This document shows, one piece after another, positions 6,013 through 59,336 of a stretch of DNA of 64,000 nt (positions are counted from its first letter, which is position 1; each line of letters starts with the position of its first letter). The notes beneath the pieces are model-generated. The model was not told the origin of the DNA and made no database searches. It worked only from the letters and a program-made list of their open reading frames with translations. The stretch comes from an uncultured Dehalococcoidia bacterium. Its GTDB lineage: Bacteria > Chloroflexota > Dehalococcoidia > Lucifugimonadales > UBA3495. A program made the translations under genes and the position numbers. The stretch lies in NCBI GenBank assembly GCA_958296385.1, contig OY282494.1:2622981-2686980 (forward strand), read 5' to 3'.

Positions 6013-6029
6013 GCTGGCACAACCGAATA

Positions 6030-6125: not shown

Positions 6126-6138
6126 GCGCATCTTTCGT

Positions 6139-8847: not shown

Positions 8848-8922
8848 ACCCTCCTGTGGATTTGTCTCCGGGATAGATCTCCGGAGATGTGTCTCCAGCC
8901 GGTGCGTTACATGGACTGGCGG

Positions 8923-9969: not shown

Positions 9970-10130
9970 ATCGTCACCATCCGTAGCCGGAGTGTCAGCG
10001 GGATAATACAGCCGCCATTGTGCGTTCACCACCCCAACCTGTCAACCGAAAAGCAGCGCCCATTCGCCAGCGCGGGATAGCACGCTATCAGATATAGATG
10101 TGAACGGTAACTGCCAGATGCGAGGCTAAA

Positions 10131-13752: not shown

Positions 13753-15059
<1,307 letters not shown>

Positions 15060-15063
<4 letters not shown>

Positions 15064-21175: not shown

Positions 21176-21405
21176 ACGAGAGGCAGGAAGCCCAACTCCG
21201 AGCCGAGGCCCGCACCGAACAGGAGCGAGCCGCCCGACTCCAGGCTGAATCCCGGGCTGAACAGGAACAGGCCGCCCGACTCCAGGCTGAAACTCGCGCC
21301 GAGCAGGAGCGGTCTGCCCGCCTCCAGGCCGAGGCTCGCTCCGCGCAGGCTGAGGCGGAGGTGCGGGCTTTGCGGGAGCGGCTGCGGTTGCAGGGGGGTG
21401 GCTGA
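20515..21405 (+). CDS. Uma2-family (DUF820) PD-(D/E)xK endonuclease, copy 2
   Basis: Near-identical to copy 1 over roughly the first 220 aa. It has a different C-terminal tail made of three 14-aa R(A/T)EQE(R/Q)(A/S)ARLQAE(S/T/A) repeats. Confidence 0.8.
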   Translation: MTTTTITVVKTPPPAPLPSAPAPARFQFPDPPEREIDEAMTNYRQMTYTGQCHHLVRYLGNEDTTLVTADLWIARGPRPGTSGLRRPDLLVAFDVDPQAYHATRGYLISEQGKPPDFVLEIASPSTAKVDVEEKPADYAGLGILEYWRFDETGDSHGVRLAGDRLVDGRYEPIPIEELPDGSLQGYSPVLNVYLRWEPVQGEQGMLGWYDPETGQHIPTFDERQEAQLRAEARTEQERAARLQAESRAEQEQAARLQAETRAEQERSARLQAEARSAQAEAEVRALRERLRLQGGG

Positions 21406-21524
21406 CCCGGCCGGGGGGTGGGGGCCGTGCTTTAGTCTGGCAGCTGACCTGTAAAGGCTGAGTCAGCTGGCCGGGGTGGGGGCCGGGGGGGTTGTTTTGC
21501 TTGAAGTGGGTTTTGGGGGGGTGT

Positions 21525-21552
21525 TTGTTTGGGGGTGGGTTTGTGGTATTAT
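21525..21552 (+). promoter_or_regulatory. Candidate promoter of the giant gene (TTGTTT, 16-nt spacer, TGn-extended TATTAT)
   Basis: TGGTATTAT at 21544-21552 with TTGTTT at 21525-21530. Motif resemblance only. Confidence 0.3.
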
Positions 21553-21688
21553 GCGCTATTGTGATGTTTGCTGTTAATTTTTGCCGCTCGGCTCCCTTTG
21601 GGGGTTGGAGGGTTTGCTTATGGTAGCCGGTTGGGGACGCGCTTTGCCGGCGCTGGGTCTGGGTCTGGGTCTGGTGGGTGTGAAAGTC

Positions 21689-21708
21689 GGGGGGGGGGGG
21701 GGGGGGGG
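21689..21708 (+). repeat. Homopolymeric G20 tract at the 5' end of the giant gene
   Basis: Counted directly: 20 consecutive G, ending 7 nt before ATG 21716. Confidence 0.95.
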
Positions 21709-21715
21709 TAGTGTG

Positions 21716-24700
21716 ATGCCCCGCCTGGGCCAGCGCCAGGGCTATCGCCGTCGCTTTGGGCGCGGCCGGTTTGTGCTGGCCGGGTTGGTTGCGCTTTTGC
21801 TGCTGCTGGCGGGGCTGGCTCTGTTTGGCGGCGCCGGGGATGTGTTGGCGCAAAGCACCACCGACTACGATACCAACGACAACAACCTCATCGACATCAC
21901 CACCCTGGACCAGCTTAACGCCATCCGGCACGACCCGGACGGCGACGGCGACCCGACTTCCGGGGGAGCTACGGCTTACAACGACGCCTTTCCATCTCGC
22001 GAATCCGGCGCTACCGGGCGCATGGGCTGCCCCAATACCTGCGCCGGCTACGAGCTGCGGGCTGACCTGGACTTTGACACTACCGGCAACGACGACATCG
22101 CCGACTCGCCTTATGCCAGCTGGACGCCCATCGCGGGTTACACAAACACGTTCCGGGGCAACGGGCATACCATATCTAACCTGACCATCAACGCAACCGG
22201 CAGCTCGGGCGTCTTGTACGCCGGGTTGTTCGCCAGTATCAGCAGCGCCGTCTCCGGCGTGGGCTTGCCTAACGCCAAGATAACGTCATCCCACACCGGC
22301 AACTTCCTGCTGATGGGGCCGCTGGCCGGCAACGTGGCTACCGGCGGGACGGTAACCTCCAGCTGGGCCACCGGCAGCGTTACTTCCACCGCTACCGGCA
22401 GCGGCTTCAAGTTCATCGGCGGGCTGGTGGGTCATAACGAAGGCCCGGTGCGGGCCAGCTATTCCGGGGCATCGGTAACGGCAACGACTACGGCCACGGC
22501 GGTGAGAGTCGGCGGGCTGACCGGAGGGCTGAACCTCGCTAGTGGCACGGTGACCGCCAGCTATGCCACCGGCGCGGTATCCGGCGGCAGTGGCAACGGC
22601 TCCCACGTGGGCGGCCTGGTCGGTCAGTTCCGCTCCGACGACCCCAGCATCATCGCGTCTTACGCCACCGGAGCCGTTACCGGCGACGCCGGCGCCAAGG
22701 GCGGGCTGGTCGGCAGCGCGGGCAGCGGCACCATCACCGACAGCTATTGGGATGTTACCGCCAGCGGCGTTGCCGATGATGCCGACAGCCCGGCCGGCGA
22801 GGGCAAGACTACCAGCGAGTTGAAAACGCCCATCGCCTACGGCACCGGCGCCAGCATCTACGCCAACTGGAACGTGAACGCGGACGGCGATACTACCACC
22901 GGCGCAATGACGACCGGCAACGACGACCCCTGGCACTTTGGCACGGCCAGCCAGTACCCCATCCTGCAATTCGACCGGGATGCCGCCGCCATCGACCGGC
23001 AGTACGGCAACGCCGCCGTGAACTACGACGCCAATAACAACAATCTGATTGACGTTGCGACGCTGGCCCGGCTGGACGCCATCCGCTACGATTTGGACGG
23101 CGACGGGGTGACGGCAACCGGGGCGGACGCCGTTAAATACGCCAGTGCGTTCCCCGGCCTGACCGCCGGGATGGGCTGCATGAGTGCCTGCATTGGTTAC
23201 GAGGTGCGGGACGACCTGGACTTTGACACGGGCACGGCCGGCAATCGTGGCGATGATACTTATGCCAACGGCACTCTGGGCTGGGAACCCATCGGCAACG
23301 CTACTACCACGTTCACCGCTATCTTTGACGGCAACAGCGACGACTACACCATCTCCAATCTGTACATCAACCGCCCTACTGGGGACGGGGTGGGGCTGTT
23401 TGGGCGGACTAACGGCGCTACCCTGCGGAACATCGCCCTGGAGGACGTGGCGGTAACCGCCGCCAGTCGGACTGGCGCGCTGGTGGGCCAGGCCGACGGC
23501 GGCACTATCAGCAGCAGCCACTCCACAGGCGGCACGGTTACGGTAAGCGGCGACGTGGCCGGCGGGCTGGCGGGGCAGGTTAATGGCGCCGGCGCCATCA
23601 GCGGCAGCTACTCTACCGTCAACGTTGTCGCGTCGGGGGGCGAGGCCGGCGGGCTGGTTGGGCTGCTGATGAGGGAAAGAGTCCTGGTGAACGTCGCTAA
23701 CGTCAGGTTTGATACCGGCAGCGTTAGCGGCAGTTATGCTACCGGCACGGTTGGGGGGACGACTAACGTGGGCGGGCTGGTGGGCCGCGTCTATCTGGGC
23801 AGCATATCCGACAGCCACGCTACCGGCGCCGTCAGCTCGGCCAGCGCCGGTGCCAAAGTGGGCGGGCTGGTGGGCTATTTGCAGATCGAAGCCGAAACCG
23901 CCAGCGCGCCACCAGTGCAGGCAGCCGGCAGCATTAACGCCAGCTACGCCAACGGCGCGGTCAGCGTTACCGGCGCCAACGTCCACGCCGGCGGGCTGGT
24001 GGGAGAAAACTACGCCGGTCTGATCAAGGATGAATTCACCCAAAGCCGGGCCACCGCCAGCATCCGGGCCAGCTACGCTACCGGCGCAGTGGGGGGCACC
24101 GGCGCGGCCAACCGGCTGGGCGGGCTGGTCGGCTACAACAACGCCAACCGCACCGAGCCGAGACCGGGATTCGCCCCGCGCGGCACTGCCACCGCTGAAA
24201 TCATCGCCAGCTACTCCAACGGCCGGGTAACCGGCGCCGGCGCCGGCACCCAAAAGGGCGGCCTGGTGGGCGGAAGCCGGGGCCGACAAAGCACCCCCGG
24301 AGCCAGCGGGTACAGCGATACCGTCATTACCGACAGCTATTGGGATGTTACGGCCAGCACGGTTGCCGATGATGCTGACAGCTCGACCGGGGTGGGCAAG
24401 ACGCTCAGCGAGTTGCAGACGCCCACCGCTTACGGCACGGCTACCAGCACGCCGCCCAGCATTTACGCCAGCTGGAACCTGAACCTGGACGCCAGCGCCG
24501 GCAACGACGACCCCTGGGACTTTGGCACTAACAGCCAGTATCCCGTCCTCAAGCACAACCGCGACGCCGACGCCATCGCCCGGCAAAGGGCCGCCAACCA
24601 GGTCATCGACTACGATGCCAACAGCAACAACTTGATTGACGTTAAGACGCTGGATCAGCTGAACGCCATCCGGCACGACCTGGACGGCAACGGCGATGCG

Positions 24701-42700: not shown

Positions 42701-45700
42701 GAAGCGTTGCTGACTTTCAACTCGACGAACTATGCAACGCCGCAAACGGTTACCATCAAGGCGCCGGCGGACAACGACCCGGACAACGAAAGCGTCACGC
42801 TGACCCACACCGCCAGCGGCGGCACGAACAACGGCTACGGCGGCGTCAGCAAAGACCTGTCCATAACCGTAAGCGACGACGACTCGCCCAACATCGCGCT
42901 GTCAGTTTCCGCGCTAACCGTAGCCGAGGAAAACACCAGCCCCGCAACCTACACGGTGGTACTGGCTACCCAGCCCACTGCCGACGTAACCGTAACCGTA
43001 ACCGCATCGGGCGATTTGGAAATCGACAACAACACCGGAAACGACTTCGGTTCCAGCGAAACGCTGACCTTTACCGGCGGCGCTACCGGCAACTGGGAGA
43101 CGGCGCAGACCATCCGGGTGAACGCAACGGGGGACAACGACCTCAAGGACGACACCCCCACGATTACCCACAACCCGTCCAGCACGGACAACGACTACAA
43201 CGTCCTCGACAACAAAACCCTGAACGTAACGATTACCGACGACGACACCGGCAGCATCGTCCTGGAGCAAGGCGGCTCGGCCCTGACCACGCTGGCCCTC
43301 AGCGAGGGCGGCTCCACCGTCAACTACACCGTAGAACTGAGCCACCAGCCCACCGCCAACGTGGACGTCACCCTGACCGCAACCGACGACGTAACCATCG
43401 ACAACGCCAGCGGCAACGACTTTGACACCACCGAAACGCTGCGTTTCACTCCCGGTAACTGGCAGACGGCGCAGACAATCCGGGCGCGCGCGGCCAACGA
43501 CAACGACCTGGGCAACGACACCACCACCATTACCCACGTTGCCGCCGATGCCGCAACGGGCGTAACCAGCGACTACGCCAGCGTCAGCAACACCCTGGAC
43601 GTAACCGTAACCGACACCACCACGCCCACCGTCGTCCTGACCGATTCCGGCGGCGACACCATAACCGCGCTGGCCGTCGACGAGGAGGGCAGCAACGTCA
43701 CCTACGACGTGGCGTTGAGCAACCGGCCTCTGGATTCGGTAACCGTAACCGTCACCAGCGGCAACGTCGCCGTAACCGTCGACGATGGCGATGGCACTTT
43801 CGGCAGCAGCGATGCGCTGACTTTCACCACCACGAACTGGTCAACGGCGCAACCGATAACCGTCAAGGCGCTGGCCGACGACAACTCCACCAACGAAAGC
43901 GTCACCCTCACCCACGCCGCCGCCGACGCAACGAGCGGCATGACCAGCGGCTACGCCGGCATCAGCGACGTAACCCTGACCGTGAACGTTGACGACGACG
44001 ACGACCCGGAAATCCTGCTGTGGCACCCCACCGACGACACCGCCACTACCTCCCTAACCGTAACCGAGGAGGGCACCCAATCCTATCGCATACGCCTGAA
44101 CACTGAACCCAGGGCGGCGGTGAACGTAACCGTCAGCGCGAGGGCCGGCCTGGAAATCGATAACGGCAGCGGCACCTACGGCAGCAGCCGCACGCTGAAC
44201 TTCTCAACGACTAACTGGAACTCGCCGCAAACGGTAACGATACGCGCCACGGCCGACGACGACCTGGCTGTCGGCAGCGGCACCCTGTCCCACGCCGCCC
44301 GCAACGCCGGCAGCACGGCCAGCGACTACCACGGCCTCAGCAAGTCCCTGCCCGTAACGATTACGGACAACGACACGCCAACCATCATCATCTCCGAAAC
44401 CGGCACCCTGTCGGTGGACGAGGGCGGCAACACCACCTACACCGTCTGGCTGAGCAACCGCCCGGCCGCCGGCGTAACCATCACCATCACCAGCAGCGCA
44501 ACCGACGACGTGGAAATCGCAACCGACGGCACTTTCGGCGACAGCGCGACGCTGCGTTTCTCGACCGGGGACTGGAACAGTAGGAAAACGGTAAGGGTGC
44601 AGGGCTTGCCCGACAACGACCTGTCTAACGACCTCAACAACACCCTGACCCACGCCGCCAGCAACACGACGGCCGCCGACAGCCTGTTCGCCAGCGCCGC
44701 CGACGCCGAGCTGTCCGTAACGGTAACCGACACCACCACGCCGAGTATCGTGCTGACCCAAAGCGGCGCGGCCATCAGCGGCGCGCTGGGCATCAACGAG
44801 GAGGGCGGCAACGTCACTTACGGCGTGGGCCTGAGCAACGCGCCGCTGGCTCCCGTAACCGTCACCATCACCAGCGGCAACGCCGCCGTGGAAATCCACG
44901 ATGGCAGCAGCGCTTACAACGACGCCAATTTCAGCAGCAGCCGCACGCTGACTTTCGCCACCGGGGCCACCGCGGCGCAGATGGTAACGCTCCGGGCGCC
45001 CAACGACCCCGGCCCCGACCACGAAACCGTCACGCTAACCCACGCCGGCAGCGGCTCGCTCAGCGGCTACGAAAGCGTCAGCGACGCAACCCTCACCGTG
45101 AACGTTACTGACAACGACACGCCCGCCCTCCTGCTAACTCCAACCGTGCTGACCGTAACCGAGGAGGACAGCGCCGGCGAGAGCTACACCGTAAGCCTGA
45201 CCACCCAACCCTCGGCTGACGTAACCGTAGCCGTAACCGCGCCCGCCGGCCTGACCATCGACGGCCCCGACGACGCTACCGATTTCACCAGTAGCGAAAC
45301 GCTGACTTTCACCAACGCGAACTACGCGGCAAAGACGATAACGGTAAAAGCGGATGCGGACGATAACCTCATCGCCAACAACTTCACGATTACCCACAAC
45401 CCATCCAGCACGGATAGCAACTACAACGCCCTCCCCAACTCATCCCTGTCCGTAACGGTTACGGACGACGACACCGGCAGCCTAATCCTGTCCGAAACCT
45501 CCCGCACCGTAATTGAGGGCGAAACCACCGGCCAGACCTACACCGTCAAGCTGAGCCACCGGCCCAATGCGGCAGTAACCGTAACCATCACCAGCACCGG
45601 CAAAGCCGCCGCAACCCCGGCATCCCTGACCTTTAACACCAGCACCTGGGATAGGGAGCAGACGGTAACCGTCAAAGCGGTAGCCGACGTCAACATTATC

Positions 45701-47317
45701 GACGACATCGACACGCTAACGCACACGCCCAGCGCCGGCGGCTACCTGGCCACCGCAGCCGCTACGGTATCCGTAATCGCGCGGGACACCACCGCGCCGG
45801 TCATCACTTTGACCCCGGCCAGCCTGCCGTCCCTGAATGAGAACTCCACCGACGACTACACCGTGCGACTGGCGTCTGAGCCGGCGGCTACTACCACCGT
45901 CGCCATCGCCAGCAGCAACGCCGGCGTCACCGTTTCACCGAACTCCCTGAGCTTCACCACTGCCAACTTTGGCACTGCCCGGCCGGTAACGGTAACCAGT
46001 ACCACCGACAGCGACGCGGTGCACAACGCGTTCGGGATAACGCACACGCCCACCATCCGGGGCATCGCCAGCCCGGCCACGCCGCTGCCCCTGCTGTTCC
46101 TGGAGCCGGTTCCCCCCGGCGGCGGCGCCACGACGACTCCCATCGAATTCCTGGCGCCGACGCCCGGCAACACCGCAAGGTACGCCGTTGACGCCTCAAC
46201 GACGCACACGATAACCACCGACGCCGGCGTCCCCGAGGGCGTAATCATCCGGTCAGTAGGCGGCGTGGGCCTGGCCTCGAGCACCACCATAACCATCGGC
46301 ATCGCGGCGCCCGCCCCCCCAATCACACATCCCGGCTACACCCTGGACCCGGATACACTGGTGGACATCACCGTAACGCCGGTGCCAACAGTCGGCCTGC
46401 AAGTCTGCCTGCCCCTGCCCCAGGCCGGCGGCCCCGGCGGCCCCCGGATGCTGCACTACGATGGCAGCCGCTGGCGGCTCGTGTCGGGCTCCCGGCAAAT
46501 CGGCAGCCAAGTCTGCGGCACCGCAACCGACTTCTCCCCCTACATCGCCGGCCGCCTCGCCCAACCCATCGCTGAGCCGTTGCCTCCGTCCGATGGCGGT
46601 GGCGGCGGCGGTGGCGGCGCTGGCGGTGGCAGCTTCGGCGGCGGTGCACCGGCCCCGACAGCCACGCCGGCCCCAACGCCTACGCCCACGCCAACTCCGG
46701 CCGCACCGGCGCCAACCCCGACGCCGGTAACGCCCACGCCGGCCCCCGAGCGGCCCACGCCCACGCCGGCCCCCACACCCACGCCAGCGCCGCCGCCGGC
46801 CGCATCCCCCACGCCAACGCCGGCCGCCCCGCCAACAGCGGCCCCGCCGCCGCCGCCCCCGGTAGCCGCCGCTATCCAGCAGCCGGCCATCATCGGAGAT
46901 ATAACCTTCAGCAACGACAGCCCCGAACCGGGCAGCGGAATACTGGTAAGGTTCCCCGTAACCAACCCCGGAACCATCACCGCGGAGTACCAGCTAATCC
47001 TCGAAGTAGCCGGCGAAACCGTCCAGCGCCAAACGGTAACCATCCCGCCCGGCGCAACCCAGGATTTGCGCCTGCCCATCATCGCCCCGGACGCCCGCGC
47101 TGCGGTAATCGTCAGGGTGGACGAGCAATCCCGGACGGTAATCCTGACGCCAGCCCGCCCAGCAACCGGAACGGGAACCGGCACCGGCGCCGGAACCGCC
47201 GCGCCTGTCGACGAACCGGCCGGCGGCGCGCCCTGGCTGCTAATCGGCATAATCGCCGTAATCGCACTGGCCATCATCGGCGGCGGCATCGCCCTGCTGA
47301 TGCGTAGGCGCGGCTGA
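21716..47317 (+). CDS. Giant (~8,500 aa) secreted, C-terminally membrane-anchored modular surface protein (GLUG beta-helix modules, cadherin-like and Calx-beta-like beta-sandwich arrays, CARDB-like domain)
   Basis: One uninterrupted frame (the track gives 21581-47317, 8578 codons). ATG 21716 yields MPRLGQRQGYRRRFGRGRFVLAGLVALLLLLAGLALFGGAGDVLA/QS, a classical signal peptide. The protein sequence is coherent and repetitive but not degenerate throughout. It ends with PWLLIGIIAVIALAIIGGGIALLMRRRG. Confidence 0.9.
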   Translation: MPRLGQRQGYRRRFGRGRFVLAGLVALLLLLAGLALFGGAGDVLAQSTTDYDTNDNNLIDITTLDQLNAIRHDPDGDGDPTSGGATAYNDAFPSRESGATGRMGCPNTCAGYELRADLDFDTTGNDDIADSPYASWTPIAGYTNTFRGNGHTISNLTINATGSSGVLYAGLFASISSAVSGVGLPNAKITSSHTGNFLLMGPLAGNVATGGTVTSSWATGSVTSTATGSGFKFIGGLVGHNEGPVRASYSGASVTATTTATAVRVGGLTGGLNLASGTVTASYATGAVSGGSGNGSHVGGLVGQFRSDDPSIIASYATGAVTGDAGAKGGLVGSAGSGTITDSYWDVTASGVADDADSPAGEGKTTSELKTPIAYGTGASIYANWNVNADGDTTTGAMTTGNDDPWHFGTASQYPILQFDRDAAAIDRQYGNAAVNYDANNNNLIDVATLARLDAIRYDLDGDGVTATGADAVKYASAFPGLTAGMGCMSACIGYEVRDDLDFDTGTAGNRGDDTYANGTLGWEPIGNATTTFTAIFDGNSDDYTISNLYINRPTGDGVGLFGRTNGATLRNIALEDVAVTAASRTGALVGQADGGTISSSHSTGGTVTVSGDVAGGLAGQVNGAGAISGSYSTVNVVASGGEAGGLVGLLMRERVLVNVANVRFDTGSVSGSYATGTVGGTTNVGGLVGRVYLGSISDSHATGAVSSASAGAKVGGLVGYLQIEAETASAPPVQAAGSINASYANGAVSVTGANVHAGGLVGENYAGLIKDEFTQSRATASIRASYATGAVGGTGAANRLGGLVGYNNANRTEPRPGFAPRGTATAEIIASYSNGRVTGAGAGTQKGGLVGGSRGRQSTPGASGYSDTVITDSYWDVTASTVADDADSSTGVGKTLSELQTPTAYGTATSTPPSIYASWNLNLDASAGNDDPWDFGTNSQYPVLKHNRDADAIARQRAANQVIDYDANSNNLIDVKTLDQLNAIRHDLDGNGDATHADYVAAFPNAVTGMGCPDTCAGYELLNDLDFDTDDDNDVDSNDDYPNWTPIGTAVAPFTTTFDGNNNVISNLTITSNSNRVGLFGQSEGTLSGIGLENVNVTGSAQFGYIGTLAGRNLGTVISSWATGTVEGSNRGAQTGGLVGRSFNSSIRASYADVAVTVASSAQQASFGGLVGRAYGTRIIASYATGSVSGGFSNSSNAGGLVGNLVVNSSIEESYATGRVTVGVGVLIGGLAGRLENSSTPRSYWDSIASGRGGSGSKTTYELRGPTAYGTATSTPPSIYASWNVNVDGNAATGDSTGRDDPWDFGTDTQYPVLKFDGMDVAAQQGRQPNISNDSSLSALAVSEVTPLVPAFATGTDTYTAMLPVGSAARTVTVTATTTDMTLAASVTYSAVAGGGSAVTADADPGTAGHQVVLGGPSTVITVTGRAQDGSRSSYTVTITGIPENDYDTNNNDLIDVISLDQLNAMRYDLNGDGTAESNGVLYANAYPLPAARMGCPNGCTGYELRNDLDFDTINDDNEADAPYDNWVPIGTDGAQFSGAFQGNGHSISNLNVNAGANVVTLGLFGTVSGAISGVGLPNARIAGARAQATAIGTLAGTLGGGGTATSVWATGSVASSDAGGGTKYIGGLVGYQAGTVLASYSGATVTVDNAATSVYAGGLTGLVQGSVIASYATGAVSGGTGAGAHVGGLAGRVNAAGSRITASYATGTVTSGGANVGGLTGSVTNSVNVGSSYWDTITSGIADDADNTAPEGKTTYELRMPTAYGSSSADLYAFWNLDLDNADNDNTLTTGRDDPWEFGTNAQYPILKYGGLASSTQRAILPSPSSTDSTLSALSVTGVALRPVVFDAATLAYTAALGADSDLSSVTITATPTDMASVSISAVIGSGAAVTSDADTVAAGYQVALGSPTTTVTITVAAADGSRTTYTVTITVPPADYDADNDNLIDVRTLDQLNAIRYDLGGNGVADDSTDQATYSMAFPRAAAGMGCPSTGCTGYELLNDLSFDTNGDGVISFLDGAYEHWEPIGKSGAPYTATFKGNGHTIDRLNIVAEDVGQVGLFGAVGVARDSGNNITMTGAISGVGLPNANVSTQSTATNVVGTLVGYLDGGSVTSSWAAGKVEEKSEDNSGKQVGGLVGIASGAVRDSYARVSVMTDARISDVHAGGLVGQLNGGTITASYATGAVSGGIQNGSYVGGLVGWVSNTASITASYATGQVSINTGVNGGGLAGNMAGSIMNSYWDVTTSGVADDADSPAGEGKTTIELQTPTAYGATGIYSAWNVNVDGVSGIDDPWYFGTSSEYPILKHQRSVINIDWQRNPTLTKKNYDDDGDNLIDITTLAQLDAMRYDLSAGGEGSIAEANRIKYAAAFPGLTPGMGCDDGCTGYELRRNLDFDTDNTGAVDSSDAYPNWTPIGSSGSPYGGEFKGNNFTISNLTINAPASIREMGLFGGAGGAISGVGLPNVKITGAAVALNAGALAGVLSGSVTSSWATGTLEARNSGLGGFKYVGGLVGWMVSSGDYVRASWANVAVTAPTSFVSAGGLIGLLDSGDVIASYALGAVSGGEGGPSRTGGLVGAVTGNGSTITASYATGPVTGQDGSSVSGLFNTLINTPTIANSYWDSIRSGIADDSDDDAPEGRATYQLRGPTAYGASTTTDLYFAWNVDVDNADGDNDLTTGTDDPWDFGTNLLYPVLQYDGMDAAGQKAVQPTISTDSTLSGLSVAPARLVETFAAGTDSYTATLPAMSTALSVTVTATTTAMTARGVSYSAVAGGGSPVTADADTGADGHQVTLVGPMTDITITVMAEDGSTQSYTVSITVPENDYDDNDNGLIDVRTVEQLNAIRYDLNGDGTTNAGDAAAYAAAYPYPMAGMGCQAVDHDNDANTANQPVCTGYELRQNLDFDTTGDDDTADAPYENWVPIGAGSTQYSGEFKGNNFTIANLTIDAPASIDEVGLFGGPVGAISGVGLENVKITGAAVALKAGALAGVSQGSVTSSWATGTLAASDGSNSIKQLGGLVGRLVNSDVIASWANVSVSAPDSAIGIYVGGLVGIVNNSDVIASYATGAVSGGGAGSRIGGLAGFMEGGGSTITASYATGPVTGGNGSTQSGLLSAFVGTITNSYWDAIRSGIPDDADDAAPEGKTTYELRSPTAYGASTSTGLYVAWNVDVDNADGDNNLATGGDDPWDFGTNLEYPVLKYDGADAAGQKTGQPTPSTDGTLSGLSVAPAMLTTTFAAGTASYTATLPPGATPLTATVTATTTAATARGVSYSAVAGSGSPVTADADTSADGHQVTLVGPLTVITITVMAEDGSPQTYTVSITVPTHDYDTNNNGLIDVTTLERLNAIRYDLNGDGTANAGDAAAYAAAYPYPMAGMGCPSATCTGYELRNALDFNTGEANIRTDDTYYNDGEGWAPIGGVTGRFATAPSETYTGAFNGNGFAISNLQIDRTGSDSSDADSYIGLFGDASGRIEQVALVNAEVKGETVVGTLVGRLASGGSIVASYVQGGLVEGHSYIGGLVGINQPNASITASYTDIRVNNTYTGSIFGGTGYATGGIAGIHAGRIIASYAMGSVERQPLTGTRASTGGLSGFTGSNSPAQATTNSYWDTVRTGQATEFGFPRTTAGGKATYELRTPTNAGGYAGIYANWNLNIDGDTGTGTPTTGLDNPWDFGTGMQYPALRYGGHSAAAQFARQPDIGTNDELSSLTVAPATLAPDFSASVIEYTATLPDSNPAALTVAGVTATTTDVSISAVIGSGAAVTTDADAVAAGYQVTLGSPNTVITVTATAPDGSTTTYTVTISIPANDYDADDDGLIDITTLAQLNAVRYDLDGDGAVSSGDAANYASAFYYPAAGMGCAAVDHDNDANTADQPVCTGYELMADLDFDTDDSGGVDSSDTYPNWAPIGSVSSSFTGDFEGNGHTIANLTINNTSGSGALRLGLFGNIGGSVSGVGLPDASISSSYSGTLLMGPLAGNVIGNGTVTSSWATGSVESTDTGGAKFIGGLLGHSERPVRASYSGASVTAPNTATGVSAGGLAGALFSTSTVTASYATGAVSGGTGSGSHVGGLVGQFRSSTASIIASYATGAVTGGGTGANVGGLVGSAGTATITNSYWDVTASGVADDANSPAGVGQTTTALQTPTGTTGIYSGWDVNVDGESGNDDPWHFGTASQYPILQFDRDVIAIERQYSNVGKDYDDDNDNLIDVTTLAQLDAIRYDLNGDGAGWAKGSASARYATAFPGLSAGMGCPDGCAGYELLADLDFDSNDDGEVNSSDAYPNWTPIGTAAAPYTATFNGNHRTIANLTVNAAASVGRVGLFGEASGAISRVGLPDVSISAAAAGLLAGALVGFLDEDGTVTSSWATGSVTATDTGSDAQSIGGLVGETSGAVRGSYAGVSVTAPNTATNVRAGGLVGYSAVVTASYATGAVAGGAGNDSDTGGLVGLSGATGAGSAVATASYATGAVTSGIGANVGGLAGRSVFMSIPTVNSYWDTEKSGIAAGASSYGVGKTTSELQTPTAYGDIYAMWNVDVTDTGNIDDPWDFGLNSQYPALKYDGMDVLRQGRNTILFSTDALDVTEEDSAGANYTVRLGGAPKAGTTVTVAITSPADDDVTIATDGTFSDSATLRFTDADYTTGQTVTVKAGGDANLANESLTLTHTASGAGSGFADATADLTVTVIDNDTGAILLRQSGSDITALTITEEASSDTEYQVSLDQPPLASVSITITSSDADAVRIHDGSSTFTDSDFGSSHTLTFAAGTTTAQTVTIRAPHDSDGNEGSATLTHTAAGTGHGYNNASTTLSVTVTDDDTPAVLLWEAAAETASSTLTVAEEGSGSYRVRLQTQPTADVTVTVTASGDLTIDDSTGNDFATTKTLTFTGGSGGNWETAQTIRVRAAADVNLANETLTITHAVTSTDPAYTGLSDVSLTVTVEDDDTNAAAIILKQNGTATSTLSLIEGAAAAEYTVELSHEPSHDVEVTVTAAGDVTIDGPDVPTTLTVSETLTFTAGSYGPQIIRAQAASDSDLFDDTLTITHAAADATSGMASGYAGVSKDLAVTVADDDQGEIRVTSGGSVVELGVTEEHSGTVTYDVELVQTPLANVTVTVAVPSDYTDVLEIDGPDAGLTFSSSETINFTPTDHGKKTITLRAKADDDDDGATFSLTHTAADATSTASGYDGVTKDQLVRVTDNDVPGITLSVTTALAVREENASPVTYTVVLDTKPGADVIVTVTAGTNLEIDDSAGDDFGGSETLTFTSMDWNTAQTIRVNALADDNVVHETTAITHVVTSTDTAYNAVGDESLAVNVTDSDTAAIVLATTTLMITEGGSDTYTVKLSNEPSAEVTVTITSPADDDVTIATDGSTFSDSETLTFDADWNTGKTVTVQTAEDDDDLGNDTAILTHTASGVGSGYESASTTALTVTVEDNDSGDILLRQSGADIATLTIDEEASDTTYQVSLAQAPLADVSITITSSDADAVRIHDGGSTSTDADFGSSRTLTFDAGVTTAQDVTIRAPHDHDGIPGSSTLTHAAVGTGHGYNNARATLDVTVNDNDTPAVLLWEATDDSASSTLTVAEEGSASYRVRLQTQPSADVTIDVTAAGDLTIDDGDGTFGTTEELTFTSGSSGNWNTPQTITVRAAADNNLADETPAITHAVTSTDTNYGSLSDVSLTVTVKDNDTGSIVLTDSSNDPLTALTIDEGAAPITYKVALSHKPLADVTVTFNRTSGNVTIDTNNDNTFAATGETLTFTTTNWNVAQPVRVQAGDDFNLADDSGSINHVASNAATGVASGYAGISKALSLTETDTDTPTIKLTHATTGNAITELTVTEGNDVEYKVELSHQPLHPVTVTVTSNDSDAAIIEGPDSGSDFSDSETVLFTVSNWNTAQTVTVRAPQDNDDDNESPTLTHTPTDTTSGSESGYAGITAVTLPVTVMDDDLPGILLWEAAADTASSTLTVAEEGSASYRVRLQTQPSAAVTVTITAGTNLEIDDNNDNDFGTTETLTFTVMNWNTAQTVRVNALADDNLADETPALTHDIASISDTAYNAVSNVTLTVTVKDNDDAAIIIKQSGSEITALSLTEAAAASSYTVELSNQPSANVTVLVTATDDVTIDDNSGTDFDTTETLTFTANTWDDPQTIRARAATDPDLSDDDTTITHVASDATVGSVSGYAGVRKTLDVTETDSTTPTVVLTDSGGDAITTLDVTEDAGNVTYNVGLSNPPLAAVTVVITSGDADAVQIDDGGTFGTSRTLNFAIGATAAQPVTVKAPHDNDDDNESVTISHNPDGAGSGGYETIASQDLTVAVDDDDDPAIALYHATDLTATTTLTVTEEATATYRVRLASQPTQSVTVTITPSAGLQVDDGGGTFANSGTLTFPASDWDDLQTVTVQAAEDVDLTDTTITIAHSTDSTDTDYARAAGLSATLTVTVEDNDTASIILSETGTLALTEQAAAVNYTVKLSHQPAASVTVTVTSAGAVTIDDNTGTDFSTSETLTFTGGGSGNWNTPQTIRVQAGDDSNLEAETSTITHAIASTGDANYNALEDVSLSVSIADNDTGDIELTQSGSAIAANTLAINEEASNTTYSVGLSEAPLAQVTVTITSGDADALQIHDGGSDFNDADFSGSRTLTFASGVTTAQEVTIRAPHDGNSISERVTITHVAGGTNNGYVGVSKSLTVNVADNDTPGIALVISELTVTEENTSGGTYDVALQTQPNADVTVTVTAPDGLTIDGPAAGTNFTSSVTLDFTTINWETGQTIAVRAAADDNLSHDTHQISHVAADATSTASLYAGLSKDLAVTVEDNDNPTIIVATSTLTVMEGDTETYTVRLSHQPAHGVTVTIASGASDGVEIDGPDNGATFSNSETLFFTNSASSWQTPQTVTVRGLSDADLSDSTGNTLTHTASNTVSSQDSLFTSAPAVTLTFTVDDDDTGDILLTQNSAAITSLTINEEHATDTTYQVALSEAPLADVTITVTTDDNDAVTIDGPDGNSDFTNSEALLTFNSTNYATPQTVTIKAPADNDPDNESVTLTHTASGGTNNGYGGVSKDLSITVSDDDSPNIALSVSALTVAEENTSPATYTVVLATQPTADVTVTVTASGDLEIDNNTGNDFGSSETLTFTGGATGNWETAQTIRVNATGDNDLKDDTPTITHNPSSTDNDYNVLDNKTLNVTITDDDTGSIVLEQGGSALTTLALSEGGSTVNYTVELSHQPTANVDVTLTATDDVTIDNASGNDFDTTETLRFTPGNWQTAQTIRARAANDNDLGNDTTTITHVAADAATGVTSDYASVSNTLDVTVTDTTTPTVVLTDSGGDTITALAVDEEGSNVTYDVALSNRPLDSVTVTVTSGNVAVTVDDGDGTFGSSDALTFTTTNWSTAQPITVKALADDNSTNESVTLTHAAADATSGMTSGYAGISDVTLTVNVDDDDDPEILLWHPTDDTATTSLTVTEEGTQSYRIRLNTEPRAAVNVTVSARAGLEIDNGSGTYGSSRTLNFSTTNWNSPQTVTIRATADDDLAVGSGTLSHAARNAGSTASDYHGLSKSLPVTITDNDTPTIIISETGTLSVDEGGNTTYTVWLSNRPAAGVTITITSSATDDVEIATDGTFGDSATLRFSTGDWNSRKTVRVQGLPDNDLSNDLNNTLTHAASNTTAADSLFASAADAELSVTVTDTTTPSIVLTQSGAAISGALGINEEGGNVTYGVGLSNAPLAPVTVTITSGNAAVEIHDGSSAYNDANFSSSRTLTFATGATAAQMVTLRAPNDPGPDHETVTLTHAGSGSLSGYESVSDATLTVNVTDNDTPALLLTPTVLTVTEEDSAGESYTVSLTTQPSADVTVAVTAPAGLTIDGPDDATDFTSSETLTFTNANYAAKTITVKADADDNLIANNFTITHNPSSTDSNYNALPNSSLSVTVTDDDTGSLILSETSRTVIEGETTGQTYTVKLSHRPNAAVTVTITSTGKAAATPASLTFNTSTWDREQTVTVKAVADVNIIDDIDTLTHTPSAGGYLATAAATVSVIARDTTAPVITLTPASLPSLNENSTDDYTVRLASEPAATTTVAIASSNAGVTVSPNSLSFTTANFGTARPVTVTSTTDSDAVHNAFGITHTPTIRGIASPATPLPLLFLEPVPPGGGATTTPIEFLAPTPGNTARYAVDASTTHTITTDAGVPEGVIIRSVGGVGLASSTTITIGIAAPAPPITHPGYTLDPDTLVDITVTPVPTVGLQVCLPLPQAGGPGGPRMLHYDGSRWRLVSGSRQIGSQVCGTATDFSPYIAGRLAQPIAEPLPPSDGGGGGGGGAGGGSFGGGAPAPTATPAPTPTPTPTPAAPAPTPTPVTPTPAPERPTPTPAPTPTPAPPPAASPTPTPAAPPTAAPPPPPPVAAAIQQPAIIGDITFSNDSPEPGSGILVRFPVTNPGTITAEYQLILEVAGETVQRQTVTIPPGATQDLRLPIIAPDARAAVIVRVDEQSRTVILTPARPATGTGTGTGAGTAAPVDEPAGGAPWLLIGIIAVIALAIIGGGIALLMRRRG
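21863..35400 (+). repeat. Ten tandem coding modules (1.1-1.6 kb each) of the GLUG type
   Basis: Module starts ((D/N)YDxNxNxLID) at 21863, 23021, 24608, 26054, 27527, 28691, 30182, 31691, 33134 and 34301. Each module contains GNGHTISNL, many GGLVG repeats, and a SYWD...DDPWDFGT..QYP.L end. Confidence 0.85.
35411..46108 (+). repeat. About 29 tandem coding units (~105-128 aa) of a Calx-beta/cadherin-like beta-sandwich, including a 6-unit super-repeat
   Basis: Each unit has the pattern LTV.E....Y.V.L...P.A.VTVT.T......ID.......LTFT..NW.T.QT..V.A..D.D...E...I.H........L.VTV.D(N/D)D. Units 1-6 (35411-37654) are colinear paralogs of units 7-12 (37655-39904). Confidence 0.8.
46595..46862 (+). repeat. 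Low-complexity Gly run followed by a Pro/Thr/Ala linker (coding)
   Basis: GGGGGGGGAGGGSFGGGAPAPTATPAPTPTPTPTPAAPAPTPTPVTPTPAPERPTPTPAPTPTPAPPPAASPTPTPAAPPTAAPPPPPP. Confidence 0.9.
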
Positions 47318-59314: not shown

Positions 59315-59336
59315 CCCCCCCCCCCCCCCCCCCCCC
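59315..59336 (+). repeat. Homopolymeric C22 tract upstream of the LRR surface-protein gene
   Basis: Counted directly: 22 consecutive C. They are in frame (Pro7) with the downstream KRR-hydrophobic signal sequence. Confidence 0.95.

What the first reader, a model, noticed from the sequence alone, without database searches (positions are those of the whole stretch)
21581..47317. Single ~25.7-kb ORF encoding an ~8,500-aa tail-anchored modular surface protein with an unassigned architecture
One open frame of 8578 codons covers 40% of the window, and its translation is coherent and domain-like from end to end. Read directly from the translation:
(i) ATG 21716 opens a textbook signal peptide (MPRLGQRQGYRRRFGRGRFVLAGLVALLLLLAGLALFGGAGDVLA/QS).
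(ii) Ten 390-530-aa modules follow. Each has an EF-hand/dockerin-like Ca-loop pair (DYDxNxNxLIDxxTLxQLNAIRYDLxGDG), a Cys pair (MGCPxxCxGYEL), FxGNGHTISNL with many GGLVG (GLUG-type beta-helix) turns, and a SYWD...GKTTxELxxPTxY...DDPWDFGTxxQYPxL cap. Five modules are followed by a cadherin-like beta-sandwich (S(T/N)DSxLSxLSV...VTVTATTTD...YTVTIT).
(iii) About 29 consecutive acidic beta-sandwich units with D(N/D)D boundaries.
(iv) A unique ~160-aa two-Cys domain (46109-46590).
(v) A Gly run and Pro/Thr linker, a CARDB-like domain, then a TM helix plus RRRG.
The composition is Thr/Ala/Gly/Asp/Val-rich and Lys-poor, consistent with a Ca-stabilised extracellular fibre. I cannot match this domain order to a characterised adhesin, RTX, S-layer or T1SS/T5SS substrate family. 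No secretion or assembly genes flank it.
Basis: partly seen in the sequence, partly recalled or inferred. Interest (0 to 1): 0.85.

Follow-up and report, generated by a model that had tools for sequence, protein, structure and literature searches.

The report
Giant tail-anchored GLUG-module surface protein
A real 25.6-kb gene of an uncultured marine Dehalococcoidia bacterium encodes an 8,533-residue membrane-anchored surface fibre, probably an adhesin, that is the largest member seen here of an unstudied but recurrent protein family built from known domain types.

Summary
One ORF (21581-47317; likely start ATG 21716, 8,533 aa) encodes a signal peptide, 10 GLUG beta-helix modules, 5 cadherin-like domains and 29 acidic Ig-fold repeats. 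It ends in a two-Cys domain, a Gly/Pro-Thr linker, a small Ig-like domain and a TM helix plus RRRG.

The architecture is not unprecedented. The same domain order, with fewer copies, occurs in related Dehalococcoidia proteins. These include a 2,606-aa positional ortholog, so the window gene is a roughly 3.3-fold internal expansion. The "unique" two-Cys domain has 45 representative homologs. The module matches PDB 3N6Z and the beta-helix domain of pneumococcal IgA1 protease. The acidic repeats weakly match Pfam LapA. Calx-beta, dockerin, RTX, LPXTG and CTERM-sorting models do not hit, and CARDB hits only at E 0.29.

Best reading: a Sec-exported, C-terminally anchored fibrillar adhesin, functionally comparable to Ebh or LapA but not a member of either family.

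Three further points emerged:
- The anchor cassette recurs on an LRR protein in the same window.
- Both genes are preceded by 20-22-nt poly-G/C tracts, and similar tracts sit at the 5' ends of relatives in two phyla, which suggests hypermutable expression control.
- A GT-C-like glycosyltransferase is a syntenic neighbour.

Function and expression are untested.

The parts
21689..21708 (+). Poly-G tract (G20) ending 7 nt before ATG 21716. It may act as a Shine-Dalgarno-like leader and as a hypermutable tract.
   Evidence: It is identical (G20) in two further contigs, L088 and L089. About 2e-5 runs of 20 nt or more are expected in the window.
21716..21850 (+). Signal peptide (aa 1-45; MPRLGQRQGYRRRFGRGRF + hydrophobic core + GDVLA/QS)
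   Evidence: Read. The hydrophobic core and the ...GGAGD(V/T)xAQS end are conserved in L012 and P0256. No signal-peptide predictor was run.
21860..22972 (+). GLUG beta-helix module 1
23018..24556 (+). GLUG beta-helix module 2 (513 aa, extra GLUG turns)
24605..25666 (+). GLUG beta-helix module 3
25667..26050 (+). Cadherin-like beta-sandwich 1 (PF12733)
26051..27148 (+). GLUG beta-helix module 4 (the one modelled)
   Evidence: AF2 pLDDT 94.2, pTM 0.92. Foldseek best hit 3N6Z, E 6e-8, TM 0.61/0.65; IgA1 protease 6XJA/6XJB next.
27149..27523 (+). Cadherin-like beta-sandwich 2
27524..29803 (+). GLUG modules 5 and 6 (27524-28636 and 28688-29803)
29804..30178 (+). Cadherin-like beta-sandwich 3
30179..31312 (+). 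GLUG module 7
31313..31687 (+). Cadherin-like beta-sandwich 4
31688..32764 (+). GLUG module 8
32765..33130 (+). Cadherin-like beta-sandwich 5
33131..35380 (+). GLUG modules 9 and 10 (33131-34252 and 34298-35380)
35402..46078 (+). 29 acidic Ig-fold repeats of about 120 aa (consensus LTVxEE..TYxVxLS..P.A.VTVTV...TLTFT...W.TAQTVTV.A..D.DL....TITH......L.VTV.D.D)
   Evidence: Pfam LapA PF20579 matches 14 of 29 units, best E 4e-7. Two-repeat AF2 model: pLDDT 93.8, all-beta. Foldseek returns generic tandem Ig-like hits.
46079..46600 (+). Two-Cys domain (aa 8122-8295)
   Evidence: No Pfam or NCBIfam hit. Homologs in L007, L008, L011 and L012 at E 1e-24 to 1e-28. 45 representative proteins at E<=1e-3 among 1.84e9.
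46601..46900 (+). Gly run plus Pro/Thr-rich linker (about 100 aa)
46901..47155 (+). Small Ig-like ('CARDB-like') domain of the anchor cassette
   Evidence: Pfam CARDB only E 0.29 here and E 0.002 in the LRR paralog copy. Conserved in P0254-P0257, P0259, L001 and the LRR protein.
47234..47314 (+). TM helix WLLIGIIAVIALAIIGGGIALLM preceded by GGAP, then RRRG (cytoplasmic tail)
   Evidence: No CTERM-sorting model hit.
59315..59336 (+). Poly-C tract (C22) upstream of the LRR surface-protein gene
   Evidence: It is C23 in the 99.9%-identical contig L086, and this is the only gap in 10.5 kb.
59394..61868 (+). LRR protein carrying the same Pro/Thr linker, Ig-like domain and GGPPW-TM-RRR anchor cassette
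51160..53427 (-). Multi-pass membrane protein, possibly a GT-C-type glycosyltransferase. It is a syntenic neighbour of the giant gene in the window and of its ortholog in L080.
   Evidence: PMT E 4e-4, below cut-off; Agl23 E 8.5e-5, far below cut-off
19681..21405 (+). Two Uma2-family genes directly upstream. A Uma2 gene is also upstream of the ortholog in L080, and Uma2 genes lie upstream in L012.

Best explanation
The gene encodes a giant fibrillar surface protein of a Dehalococcoidia (Chloroflexota) bacterium that is probably marine and host-associated.

**Shown**
- The ORF is intact and has the genome's own codon usage.
- The order of parts is: signal peptide; 10 GLUG right-handed beta-helix modules, five of them followed by cadherin-like sandwiches; 29 acidic Ig-fold repeats; a two-Cys domain; a Gly/Pro-Thr linker; a small Ig-like domain; a TM helix; RRRG.
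- Orthologs and paralogs share this order of parts with different copy numbers.

**Inferred**
- Export: Sec threads the chain outward. The C-terminal helix acts as a stop-transfer anchor, with the Arg cluster inside (positive-inside rule). Chloroflexota are generally regarded as monoderm (my knowledge), so the protein would stay attached to the cytoplasmic membrane.
- Geometry: the Pro/Thr linker and small Ig domain span the envelope layer. The 29 repeats form a long stalk, possibly stiffened by Ca2+ through the D-rich boundaries. By generic domain dimensions the whole fibre would be roughly 0.2-0.3 um long (my estimate).
- Function: the 10 beta-helix heads at the far end would offer multivalent binding to host matrix, glycans or other cells.
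- Evolution and control: copy number changes quickly by internal duplication. Expression may be modulated by the hypermutable poly-G tract at the start codon. The Thr/Ser-rich chain may be glycosylated by the neighbouring GT-C-like enzyme.
For: **Real gene.**

**Domains.**
- Pfam GLUG and Cadherin-like hit at about E 1e-27.
- The module model is confident (pLDDT 94). Its best structural neighbours are 3N6Z and the IgA1 protease beta-helix domain.
- The repeats are Ig-fold and weakly match the Pfam LapA domain.

**Topology.** The signal peptide and the TM plus RRRG are read. Both are conserved in relatives.

**Family.**
- The same order of parts occurs in P0254-P0261 and L007-L013.
- P0256 is the positional ortholog. 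It is flanked by a Uma2 gene (79% identity) and by the homolog of the 755-aa membrane protein.
- The module family is large: more than 2,282 proteins and 571 confirmed genome loci. Of the 73 loci returned, 61 are Dehalococcoidia, 2 other Chloroflexota, 6 Latescibacterota, 2 Acidobacteriota, 1 Acidimicrobiales and 1 Gammaproteobacteria.

**Anchor cassette.** It is shared with an LRR protein in the same window.

**Context.**
- One related locus comes from a MAG named COS3_bin_17. I take COS to stand for the sponge Coscinoderma; this is my inference, not checked.
- Sponge MAGs are reported to be enriched in cadherin, Fn3 and LRR genes that have been exchanged between phyla (PMC8163846).
- Giant bacterial proteins are generally linked to adhesion (bioRxiv 10.1101/2023.11.21.568195).
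Against: - There is no expression, localisation or binding evidence of any kind.
- GLUG beta-helices have no demonstrated ligand. In IgA1 protease the homologous domain belongs to a protease, not an adhesin.
- Ca2+ binding by the module cap and by the repeat boundaries is only inferred from sequence. EF-hand, dockerin and Calx-beta HMMs do not hit.
- The habitat (sponge or other host) is inferred from record titles and from which taxa co-occur, not from sample metadata.
- The strong conservation of the GG(A/P)PW-TM-RRR tail could mean it is a processed sorting signal rather than a permanent anchor.
Confidence: 0.6

Rival explanations
1. It is an envelope or coat protein. The fibre would be mainly structural: a spacer, glycocalyx-like or S-layer-like coat, possibly heavily O-glycosylated. 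Such a coat could protect the cell or mask it from host phagocytosis or phage, rather than bind a specific partner.
For: - The composition is extremely Thr/Ser/Ala/Gly-rich.
- Glycosylation-type genes lie nearby: GT4, an epimerase/dehydratase, an O-methyltransferase, a radical SAM/SPASM protein, and a syntenic GT-C-like membrane protein.
- Many paralogs occur per genome: at least 13 module loci in OY282456.1.
Against: - No SLH or S-layer family hit was found.
- A single TM-anchored fibre with distal beta-helix heads is the usual adhesin layout.
- The GT-C assignment falls below both curated cut-offs.
Confidence: 0.2
2. It is a cell-bound array of polysaccharide-active modules. The ten beta-helix modules would be catalytic or carbohydrate-processing units (lyase, hydrolase or epimerase-like), held on a stalk in the way a cellulosome-like scaffold holds its enzymes. 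Their substrate would be host or algal glycans.
For: - The right-handed beta-helix is the fold of pectate lyases, GH28 enzymes and tailspikes, which appear far down the Foldseek list.
- Some single-module relatives carry true dockerin domains: P0074 has Dockerin_1 at E 9e-7 in its C-terminal part.
- The C-terminus of the L040 ORF contains a duplicated DVDGDG... segment that looks dockerin-like by eye.
Against: - Only 3N6Z and the IgA1-protease beta-helix domain are significant neighbours. All lyase and hydrolase hits have E of about 1 or more and TM below 0.3.
- No CAZy-type Pfam family hits.
- No invariant catalytic-looking acidic or basic residues stand out beyond structural Gly, Leu and aromatic positions.
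Confidence: 0.1
3. It is an assembly artefact or a decaying pseudogene. Repeat mis-assembly would have inflated the gene, or it would no longer be expressed.
For: - The gene is highly repetitive at the protein level.
- The positional ortholog is only 2,606 aa.
- No expression data exist.
Against: - DNA copies are at most 84% identical and mostly 65-76%. The longest exact repeat is 77 nt.
- The ORF is intact over 25.7 kb with uniform GC3.
- An independent 28-kb contig carries at least 8,180 residues of the same gene.
- ORFs longer than 7,100 aa with the same modules exist in other genomes.
Confidence: 0.03

Closest known systems
GLUG beta-helix domain of PDB 3N6Z (Bacteroides ovatus BACOVA_03286, 'putative IgA1 protease') and of the Streptococcus pneumoniae IgA1 protease / ZmpA family (6XJA, 6XJB)
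   Same: The whole 366-aa module superposes on 3N6Z (E 6e-8, TM 0.61/0.65) and on the IgA1P beta-helix domain. Pfam GLUG and NCBIfam ZmpA both give local hits.
   Different: There is no M26 metalloprotease domain. The hit to Peptidase_M26_N is E 0.007, below its cut-off, and the ZmpA score is 46 bits against a 3000-bit cut-off. Here the module is repeated ten times in series and carries its own Asp-rich helical cap, a Cys pair and an SYWD...DPWDFG...YPxL cap.
LapA / MpIBP / SiiE-type giant RTX adhesins of Gram-negative bacteria
   Same: These also have a long run of roughly 100-120-aa acidic Ig-fold 'extender' repeats that hold binding domains away from the cell. Pfam LapA domain matches 14 of the 29 repeats.
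   Different: - There are no RTX nonapeptide repeats: only one GGxGxD match in 8,533 aa.
- There is no T1SS signal and no neighbouring T1SS genes. The downstream ABC ATPase has a TOBE_2 domain and sits with a permease, a solute-binding protein and a DtxR-type regulator, so it looks like an importer.
- No outer-membrane retention module was identified, and a LapG site was not searched for.
- Polarity is reversed: the anchor is C-terminal and the heads are N-terminal.
- Export is by an N-terminal signal peptide.
Ebh (Staphylococcus aureus) / Embp (S. epidermidis) giant surface proteins
   Same: From my knowledge: about 10,000 aa, an N-terminal signal peptide, hundreds of nanometres of tandem repeats, and a C-terminal membrane-spanning segment with a basic tail in a monoderm envelope. 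That is the same topology and scale.
   Different: The domain families are unrelated: all-alpha FIVAR/GA repeats there, beta-helix and Ig-fold repeats here. No sequence similarity was detected.
Promoter or 5' homopolymer tracts of phase-variable surface genes (Bordetella fim poly-C, Neisseria opc/porA poly-C/G, Campylobacter poly-G contingency genes)
   Same: From my knowledge these use long G/C homopolymers directly upstream of, or at the start of, surface-protein genes. Here tract length differs between otherwise near-identical sequences.
   Different: The tracts here are longer (12-24 nt). They sit 7-35 nt upstream of the start codon, just downstream of -10-like hexamers. They occur in uncultured Dehalococcoidia and Latescibacterota. 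No ON/OFF phenotype or read-level heterogeneity has been shown.

Membership tests
GLUG-motif proteins (Pfam PF07581) | GLUG motif HMM above the gathering score | tested here: met
   94.2 bits against a cut-off of 20.5, E 1.8e-27. The beta-helix fold is confirmed by the AF2 model and Foldseek.
Cadherin-like beta sandwich (Pfam PF12733) | HMM above the gathering score | tested here: met
   96.6 bits against a cut-off of 24.2, with 5 stretches.
M26 IgA1 protease / ZmpA family | M26 zinc-metalloprotease catalytic domain; full-length ZmpA model | tested here: not met
   Peptidase_M26_N scores 16 bits (cut-off 27.7). No catalytic domain hit. ZmpA scores 45.8 bits (cut-off 3000).
LapA-type repeat (Pfam PF20579) | HMM match of the repeat unit | tested here: inconclusive
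   14 of 29 units match at E<=10, best E 4.2e-7. The whole-protein scan did not list the family at E<=0.01.
RTX / T1SS giant adhesins (LapA, MpIBP, SiiE, FrhA) | C-terminal RTX nonapeptide repeats and a T1SS secretion signal | tested here: not met
   One GGxGxD match in 8,533 aa, and it is not C-terminal. No HemolysinCabind hit. The C-terminus is a TM helix.
RTX / T1SS giant adhesins | Adjacent T1SS genes (ABC exporter, MFP, TolC) | tested here: not met
   The flanking ABC ATPase carries a TOBE_2 domain and sits with a BPD_transp_1 permease, a solute-binding protein and a DtxR-type regulator, which is an importer set.
Sortase substrates (LPXTG) | LPXTG motif, then a hydrophobic segment, then a basic tail at the C-terminus | tested here: not met
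   The hydrophobic segment and RRRG are present but there is no LPXTG. The only LPx[TSA]G is at aa 8234, inside the two-Cys domain. No NCBIfam LPXTG model hit.
Exosortase / archaeosortase / rhombosortase CTERM sorting domains (PEP-CTERM, PGF-CTERM, GlyGly-CTERM and others) | Match to a curated CTERM model; a cognate sorting enzyme in the genome | tested here: not met
   No NCBIfam family at E<=10 for the last 64 aa. No such enzyme among the 28 window ORFs scanned against Pfam. The rest of the genome could not be examined.
Calx-beta (PF03160) / CARDB (PF07705) | HMM above the gathering score | tested here: not met
   Calx-beta is absent from the hits of all 29 repeats. CARDB reaches E 0.29 and 11.8 bits (cut-off 22.7) on the tail domain.
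   No family at E<=10 on aa 49-195. The model shows a loop-helix-loop-helix cap, so an EF-hand-like Ca2+ site remains possible but unproven. The dockerin hit in relative P0074 lies in a different, C-terminal region.
Autotransporters (T5SS) | C-terminal beta-barrel translocator | tested here: not met
   No autotransporter family hit. The C-terminus is a single TM helix.
Uncharacterised Dehalococcoidia 'GLUG modules - acidic repeats - two-Cys domain - anchor cassette' family (defined here) | Same order of the four part types, plus a conserved GG(A/P)PW-TM-RRR tail | tested here: met
   Architecture strings from local HMMs; tail alignment; positional orthology with P0256.

The most novel reading that the evidence does not exclude
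The giant would be the extreme member of a cross-phylum set of GLUG-module surface proteins in co-resident marine, probably sponge-associated, bacteria. Three features would define this set:
- Expression would be switched or tuned by hypermutable 12-24-nt poly-C/G tracts placed at the transcription or translation start.
- In this Dehalococcoidia lineage, the proteins would be displayed through a previously undescribed C-terminal anchor or sorting cassette (Pro/Thr linker, small Ig domain, GG(A/P)PW, TM helix, RRR). Unrelated passengers such as an LRR protein share this cassette.
- The proteins might be O-glycosylated by a syntenic GT-C enzyme.

Together this would be a contingency-locus system for host interaction in uncultured symbionts.
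Probability: 0.3. Interest if true: 0.75.

Novelty: new variant of a known kind. Interest (0 to 1): 0.5.

Why it matters
Giant repetitive surface proteins are the main tools bacteria use to hold on to hosts and to each other. Almost all that have been studied come from cultured pathogens.

This locus gives a clean, complete example from an uncultured Dehalococcoidia lineage. The genome is a 3.3-Mb contig and the gene shows no signs of repeat collapse. The protein combines tandem GLUG beta-helices, whose function is still unknown, with a LapA-like stalk in the reverse polarity to RTX adhesins.

The family offers three natural experiments:
- Copy number varies from 2 to at least 10 modules and from 2 to 29 stalk repeats.
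- One anchor cassette is reused on different passengers.
- Homopolymer tracts are placed where phase-variation switches sit in pathogens.

If the tracts really vary within populations, on/off variation of surface proteins in symbionts of marine animals would become directly testable from existing long-read data.

Tried and rejected
**Searches that found nothing useful**
- A scan of genome contigs with the C-terminal 412 aa found no relative. The source genome is evidently not among the species representatives.
- The search for homologous proteins with the same 412 aa returned only four junk hits, because the Pro/Thr low-complexity region swamped the word index. The question was answered instead by a full HMMER scan of the two-Cys domain alone.
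- The listing of cluster members on ten module homologs returned no names or accessions.
- Exact look-ups of the window's ABC ATPase, of the 100%-identical MutS2 P0130, and of the LRR protein from ATG 59418 were not on record.
- A scan of metagenome contigs with the anchor-cassette alignment gave two weak partial hits. The cassette is rare outside this lineage, at least in JGI data.

**Tests that were uninformative**
- I tried to test tract-length variation with the multi-contig GLUG proteins P0074 and P0005. Those genes, from lower-GC organisms, have no tract.
- Rfam found nothing near the gene: only two tRNAs and a TPP riboswitch elsewhere.
- The terminator scan after the stop codon found none.
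- The profile of the acidic repeats against PDB sequences gave only insignificant antibody hits.

**Literature**
- Searches for GLUG proteins or homopolymer phase variation in sponge symbionts found no description.

**Readings rejected**
- An RTX/T1SS adhesin, an LPXTG protein, an autotransporter, an S-layer (SLH) protein and an IgA1 protease. The membership table gives the reasons.
- A Tat substrate. The RRRF in the n-region resembles the Tat motif, but export of a folded 8.5-kaa protein is implausible. This is my inference and was not tested.
Full report
**1.

- The ORF listing gives one ORF at 21581..47317 (+) of 8,578 codons. The next longest ORFs are antisense shadows of at most 1,631 codons inside it.
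- The translation has no stop. From ATG 21716 the product is 8,533 aa.
- GC3 is 0.84 for the ORF as a whole (0.81-0.86 in successive 1,000-codon blocks). Six other genes of the window have 0.74-0.87. The gene is therefore native coding sequence, not a chance open frame.

**2. Anatomy**

After the signal peptide (aa 1-45, ending GDVLA/QS) come ten modules of 354-513 aa.

- Each module starts with (D/N)YDxxxxxLID...L(N/D)A(I/M)R(Y/H)D(L/P)xGxG.
- Each has a Cys pair (MGC-x3-16-C-xGYE(L/V)), a run of GGL(V/A)G turns, and an SYWD...DPW.FG...YPxL(K/Q/R) cap.
- Modules 3, 4, 6, 7 and 8 are each followed by a roughly 125-aa domain that Pfam calls Cadherin-like (PF12733, five stretches, E 1e-27). Pfam GLUG (PF07581) hits at E 2e-27.

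An AlphaFold2 model of module 4, built on 46 aligned sequences, is confident (pLDDT 94.2, pTM 0.92).

- It shows a short three-helix cap, a long parallel beta-helix and a small C-terminal cap.
- Foldseek against the PDB finds three matches at E<=1e-3. The best is 3N6Z, a structural-genomics protein from Bacteroides ovatus annotated as a putative IgA1 protease (E 6e-8, TM 0.61/0.65), which covers the whole module. The others are pneumococcal IgA1 protease entries. Weaker matches from the same family follow: 7UVL and 7JGJ (E about 3e-3) and G. haemolysans IgA1 protease (E 0.012).
- Pectate lyases and tailspikes appear only at E of about 1 or more.
- A sequence search of the PDB agrees: 6XJA at E 0.009.

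Residues 4563-8121 are 29 tandem acidic repeats of about 120 aa.

- An HMM built iteratively from one unit finds 27 strong copies and two weaker terminal ones.
- Calx-beta does not hit. Pfam's LapA domain (PF20579) matches 14 of the 29 units, best E 4e-7.
- A two-repeat model (pLDDT 93.8) is all-beta. It retrieves generic tandem Ig-like structures such as CfaB pilin fusions and NCX1 CBD1-2, all with TM of 0.50 or less.

The C-terminal region has five parts.

- A 174-aa two-Cys domain with no Pfam or NCBIfam match.
- A Gly run and a roughly 90-aa Pro/Thr linker.
- An 85-aa Ig-like domain that reaches only E 0.29 against CARDB.
- A short Gly/Thr spacer.
- The sequence GGAP-WLLIGIIAVIALAIIGGGIALLM-RRRG.

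**3. Assembly**

- DNA copies inside the gene are old. The best pair is 84% identical over 1.5 kb, most pairs are 65-76% identical, and the longest exact direct repeat is 77 nt.
- Two other contigs of metagenome ERZ19489113 carry the upstream genes and the 5' end with 100% identity over 5.9 kb. On one of them, a 28-kb contig, the gene was called for 8,180 residues until the contig ends.
- Repeat collapse or inflation is therefore unlikely. Only read mapping can settle it.

**4. Whose gene it is**

- The window's MutS2 is 100% identical to a protein on a 3,298,084-bp contig held by NCBI and ENA. Its relatives are 74-81% identical and occur in many MAGs.
- Scanning one genome per species with the module alignment gave 571 confirmed loci. 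The 73 distinct loci returned break down as follows:
  - 61 titled Dehalococcoidia
  - 2 other Chloroflexota, one of them COS3_bin_17
  - 6 Latescibacterota
  - 2 Acidobacteriota (Ca. Versatilivoraceae)
  - 1 Acidimicrobiales
  - 1 Gammaproteobacteria (Ca. Azotimanducaceae)
- This taxon mix, the LRR protein in the window and the MAG name COS3_bin_17 point to a marine sponge or similar host. I read COS as the sponge Coscinoderma, which I did not check. Sponge MAGs are reported to be enriched in cadherin, Fn3 and LRR genes exchanged between phyla (PMC8163846). I could not see sample metadata, so the habitat remains an inference.

**5. The architecture recurs**

The word-index protein search returned more than 2,282 module homologs. 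All of the 120 best-scoring ones listed are 854 aa or shorter and unnamed. The genome loci and the full HMMER scan show the long forms.

- Open frames through the module matches reach 4,000-7,100 aa. Five are cut off by both ends of the fetched locus, four of them at about 7,100 aa.
It also has matches at E 1e-24 to 1e-28 in four proteins of the closest genome, OY282456.1.

I annotated these proteins with local HMMs for five part types: module (G), cadherin-like domain (c), acidic repeat (a), two-Cys domain (Y) and anchor cassette (T).

| Protein | Length | Architecture |
|---|---|---|
| Window gene | 8,533 aa | GG GcGcGGcGcGcGG a29 Y T |
| P0256 | 2,606 aa | GcGGG a5 Y T |
| P0259 | 1,566 aa | GG aa Y T |
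| P0257 | 4,238 aa | modules and repeats interleaved, then T |
| P0254, P0255 | N-truncated | end in a12 Y T and a5 Y T |
| L012 / P0260 | about 3,380 aa | GGaG a14 Y a (no anchor) |

- The HMM annotation of P0257 missed the two-Cys domain, but the full scan found it at aa 3837-4001.
- P0256 is the positional ortholog. It lies downstream of a Uma2 gene (79% identity to the window's) and upstream of the homolog of the window's 755-aa membrane protein. Its first 1.2 kb and last 2.9 kb align to the two ends of the window gene.
- The window gene is thus a roughly 3.3-fold internal expansion of a conserved locus, and the largest complete member I saw.

**6. The anchor cassette is a reusable unit**

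- The last 138 aa are 67-72% identical in the tails of P0254, P0255, P0256 and P0259 and of the 367-aa gene in L001. P0257 carries the same tail. The helix is almost invariant.
- The LRR protein at 59394-61868 in the same window ends in the same succession: Pro/Thr linker, Ig-like domain (54% identity, tblastn E 1e-31), Gly run, and GGPPWLLMGVLAGAAAVVLGGFVVLLRRRGRAG. A 367-aa protein next to another GLUG gene in L001/L002 does the same.
- Invariant across all copies are GG-x-PWLL-x-G, a mid-helix GG and the RRR.
- No curated CTERM-sorting or LPXTG model matches.
- I read it as a stop-transfer membrane anchor with an envelope-spanning linker. A processed sorting signal cannot be excluded.

**7. 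How it most likely works**

Shown: the parts and their order, their folds, the conservation of the two termini, and the absence of dedicated secretion genes among the 28 flanking ORFs scanned against Pfam.

Inferred:
- Sec exports the chain and the C-terminal helix holds it in the cytoplasmic membrane of a monoderm-type Chloroflexota envelope.
- The 29 Ig-fold repeats form a stalk. Their D-rich boundaries (VTVxDND) may bind Ca2+.
- The ten beta-helix heads, with cadherin-like spacers, form the distal multivalent binding part.

This works like Ebh/Embp in topology and scale, and like LapA, MpIBP or SiiE in having an extender stalk. It is a member of neither family:
- RTX repeats, a T1SS signal and T1SS genes are absent.
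- The polarity is reversed relative to RTX adhesins.

The ligand is unknown, and no GLUG domain has an established binding partner.

Rivals:
- A structural or glycosylated coat (0.2).
- An array of polysaccharide-active modules (0.1). The support is the beta-helix fold and the true dockerins in some single-module relatives. Against it, there are no catalytic-family hits.
- An artefact or pseudogene (0.03).

**8. Seen in passing: homopolymer tracts**

The window has only two homopolymer runs of 10 nt or more.

- G20 at 21689-21708 ends 7 nt before the giant's ATG.
- C22 at 59315-59336 lies just upstream of the LRR gene that shares the anchor cassette.
- The chance expectation for a run of 20 nt or more in the window is 2e-5.

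Across the 1.6 Mb examined (the related loci plus the window), 31 C/G runs of 12 nt or more were found.

- 25 of them lie 100-165 nt upstream of the first module motif on the same strand. The distance is about 500 nt where an extra N-terminal domain intervenes. The random expectation is 12.5%.
- In 17 related loci, and at the giant itself, the run ends 7-35 nt before a Met followed by a signal peptide.
- This holds in Dehalococcoidia and in Latescibacterota. In Latescibacterota, TACAATgta precedes the tract and GAGAGGAG plus 6 nt plus ATG follows it.

Tract length changes faster than its surroundings.

- Orthologous loci with nearly identical flanks carry 13, 14, 15, 17 or 18 C.
- A contig that is 99.885% identical to the window over 10.5 kb differs by a single gap, which is C23 against C22.
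- The giant's own tract is G20 in all three copies available.
- P0256 and L012 have no tract.

This is the pattern of contingency loci such as Bordetella fim, Neisseria opc/porA and Campylobacter (my knowledge). Homopolymer sequencing error has not been excluded, and no expression effect has been shown.

**9. Seen in passing: a possible glycosyltransferase neighbour**

- The syntenic 755-aa neighbour is a multi-pass membrane protein. It has sub-threshold similarity to protein O-mannosyltransferase (PMT, E 4e-4) and to Agl23 (E 8.5e-5).
- Another GLUG gene sits next to a TMEM260_N protein.
- Upstream of the giant lie a GT4 glycosyltransferase, a radical SAM/SPASM protein, an O-methyltransferase and an epimerase/dehydratase.
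- Glycosylation of the Thr/Ser-rich fibre is a reasonable but untested idea.

**10. Verdict**

This is a real and well-assembled giant gene. It is a new, very large variant within an uncharacterised family of GLUG-module surface proteins that is abundant in Dehalococcoidia MAGs. Its parts belong to known fold classes and its likely role, adhesion, is what giant bacterial proteins usually do (bioRxiv 10.1101/2023.11.21.568195).

Three things make it more than routine:
- the tandem GLUG array on a reversed-polarity LapA-like stalk;
- the reusable anchor cassette;
- the poly-G/C tracts.

I score interest at 0.5.

Noticed in passing
window 21689-21708 and 59315-59336; L007, L008, L016-L019, L023, L026, L027, L031, L032, L035, L039, L051, L052, L068, L076 (tract coordinates): Poly-G/C tracts of 12-24 nt sit 7-35 nt upstream of the start codons of GLUG-module and anchor-cassette surface-protein genes, in Dehalococcoidia and Latescibacterota. 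In total 25 of 31 tracts are at such 5' ends, against 12.5% expected at random. Orthologous loci with conserved flanks differ in tract length. One near-identical contig (L086) differs from the window only by C23 against C22. This suggests hypermutable (phase-variable) or reiterative-transcription control. Sequencing error has not been excluded.
   Followed up: partly
window 59394-61868 (+); L001 5025-6128; L002 3078-4181: An LRR protein, and a 367-aa protein next to another GLUG gene, end in the same cassette as the giant: Pro/Thr linker, small Ig-like domain, and GG(A/P)PW-TM-RRR. This is a lineage-specific anchor or sorting cassette on unrelated passengers. As assembled, the LRR gene has no canonical start codon in front of its signal-peptide-like segment (KRRLIATAALLAVVLAGIGVAL). 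An upstream GTG would come into frame with C21 or C24 (my reading).
   Followed up: partly
window 51160-53427 (-); L080 20291-23648; L083 1-1412: The 755-aa multi-pass membrane protein next to the giant is also next to its ortholog in L080, where it is interrupted. It has sub-threshold similarity to PMT and Agl23, which are GT-C glycosyltransferases. Another GLUG gene (P0074) neighbours a TMEM260_N protein. This may indicate O-glycosylation of these Thr-rich proteins. Its C-terminal roughly 110-aa domain recurs in tandem in L009, L058, L067 and L074.
   Followed up: partly
window 19681-20466 and 20515-21405 (+); L080 9061-9816; L012 1271-4231; L029 3657-5635: Uma2-family (putative restriction endonuclease-like) genes, often duplicated, lie upstream of the giant, its ortholog P0256, and the GLUG-family genes in L012 and L029; in L012 they are on the opposite strand. 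The two window copies are 94% identical over 683 nt.
   Followed up: no
window 13753-19497: A cluster upstream of the giant encodes a GT4 glycosyltransferase, a radical SAM/SPASM protein, an O-methyltransferase fused to a long N-terminal region, a histidine phosphatase and an NAD-dependent epimerase/dehydratase. It may be a sugar or peptide modification locus. Any link to the giant is untested.
   Followed up: no
window 6026-6138 (+), 4194-4386 (-), 3408-4148 (+): A TPP riboswitch lies upstream of a sodium:solute symporter-family gene (6213-7709). A TenA/THI-4 family gene is nearby, and tRNA-Pro(TGG) and tRNA-Arg(CCG) lie at 4194-4386.
   Followed up: no
window 7798-10032 (-): Two adjacent LigB-family (aromatic ring-opening dioxygenase-like) genes.
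   Followed up: no
window 21406-21715: The 310-nt region upstream of the giant gene is unusually G/T-rich, with several G5-G7 runs in addition to G20. The gene callers behind the public contigs chose ATG 21620 as the start, which would put the G20 tract inside the coding sequence as a Gly7 stretch.
   Followed up: partly
P0263, P0264, P0266, P0272, P0276, P0278, P0297: Distant homologs of the two-Cys domain occur in proteins whose C-termini look like autotransporter beta-barrel ends (...RW or ...RF). The domain is therefore also used by surface proteins of diderm bacteria.
   Followed up: no
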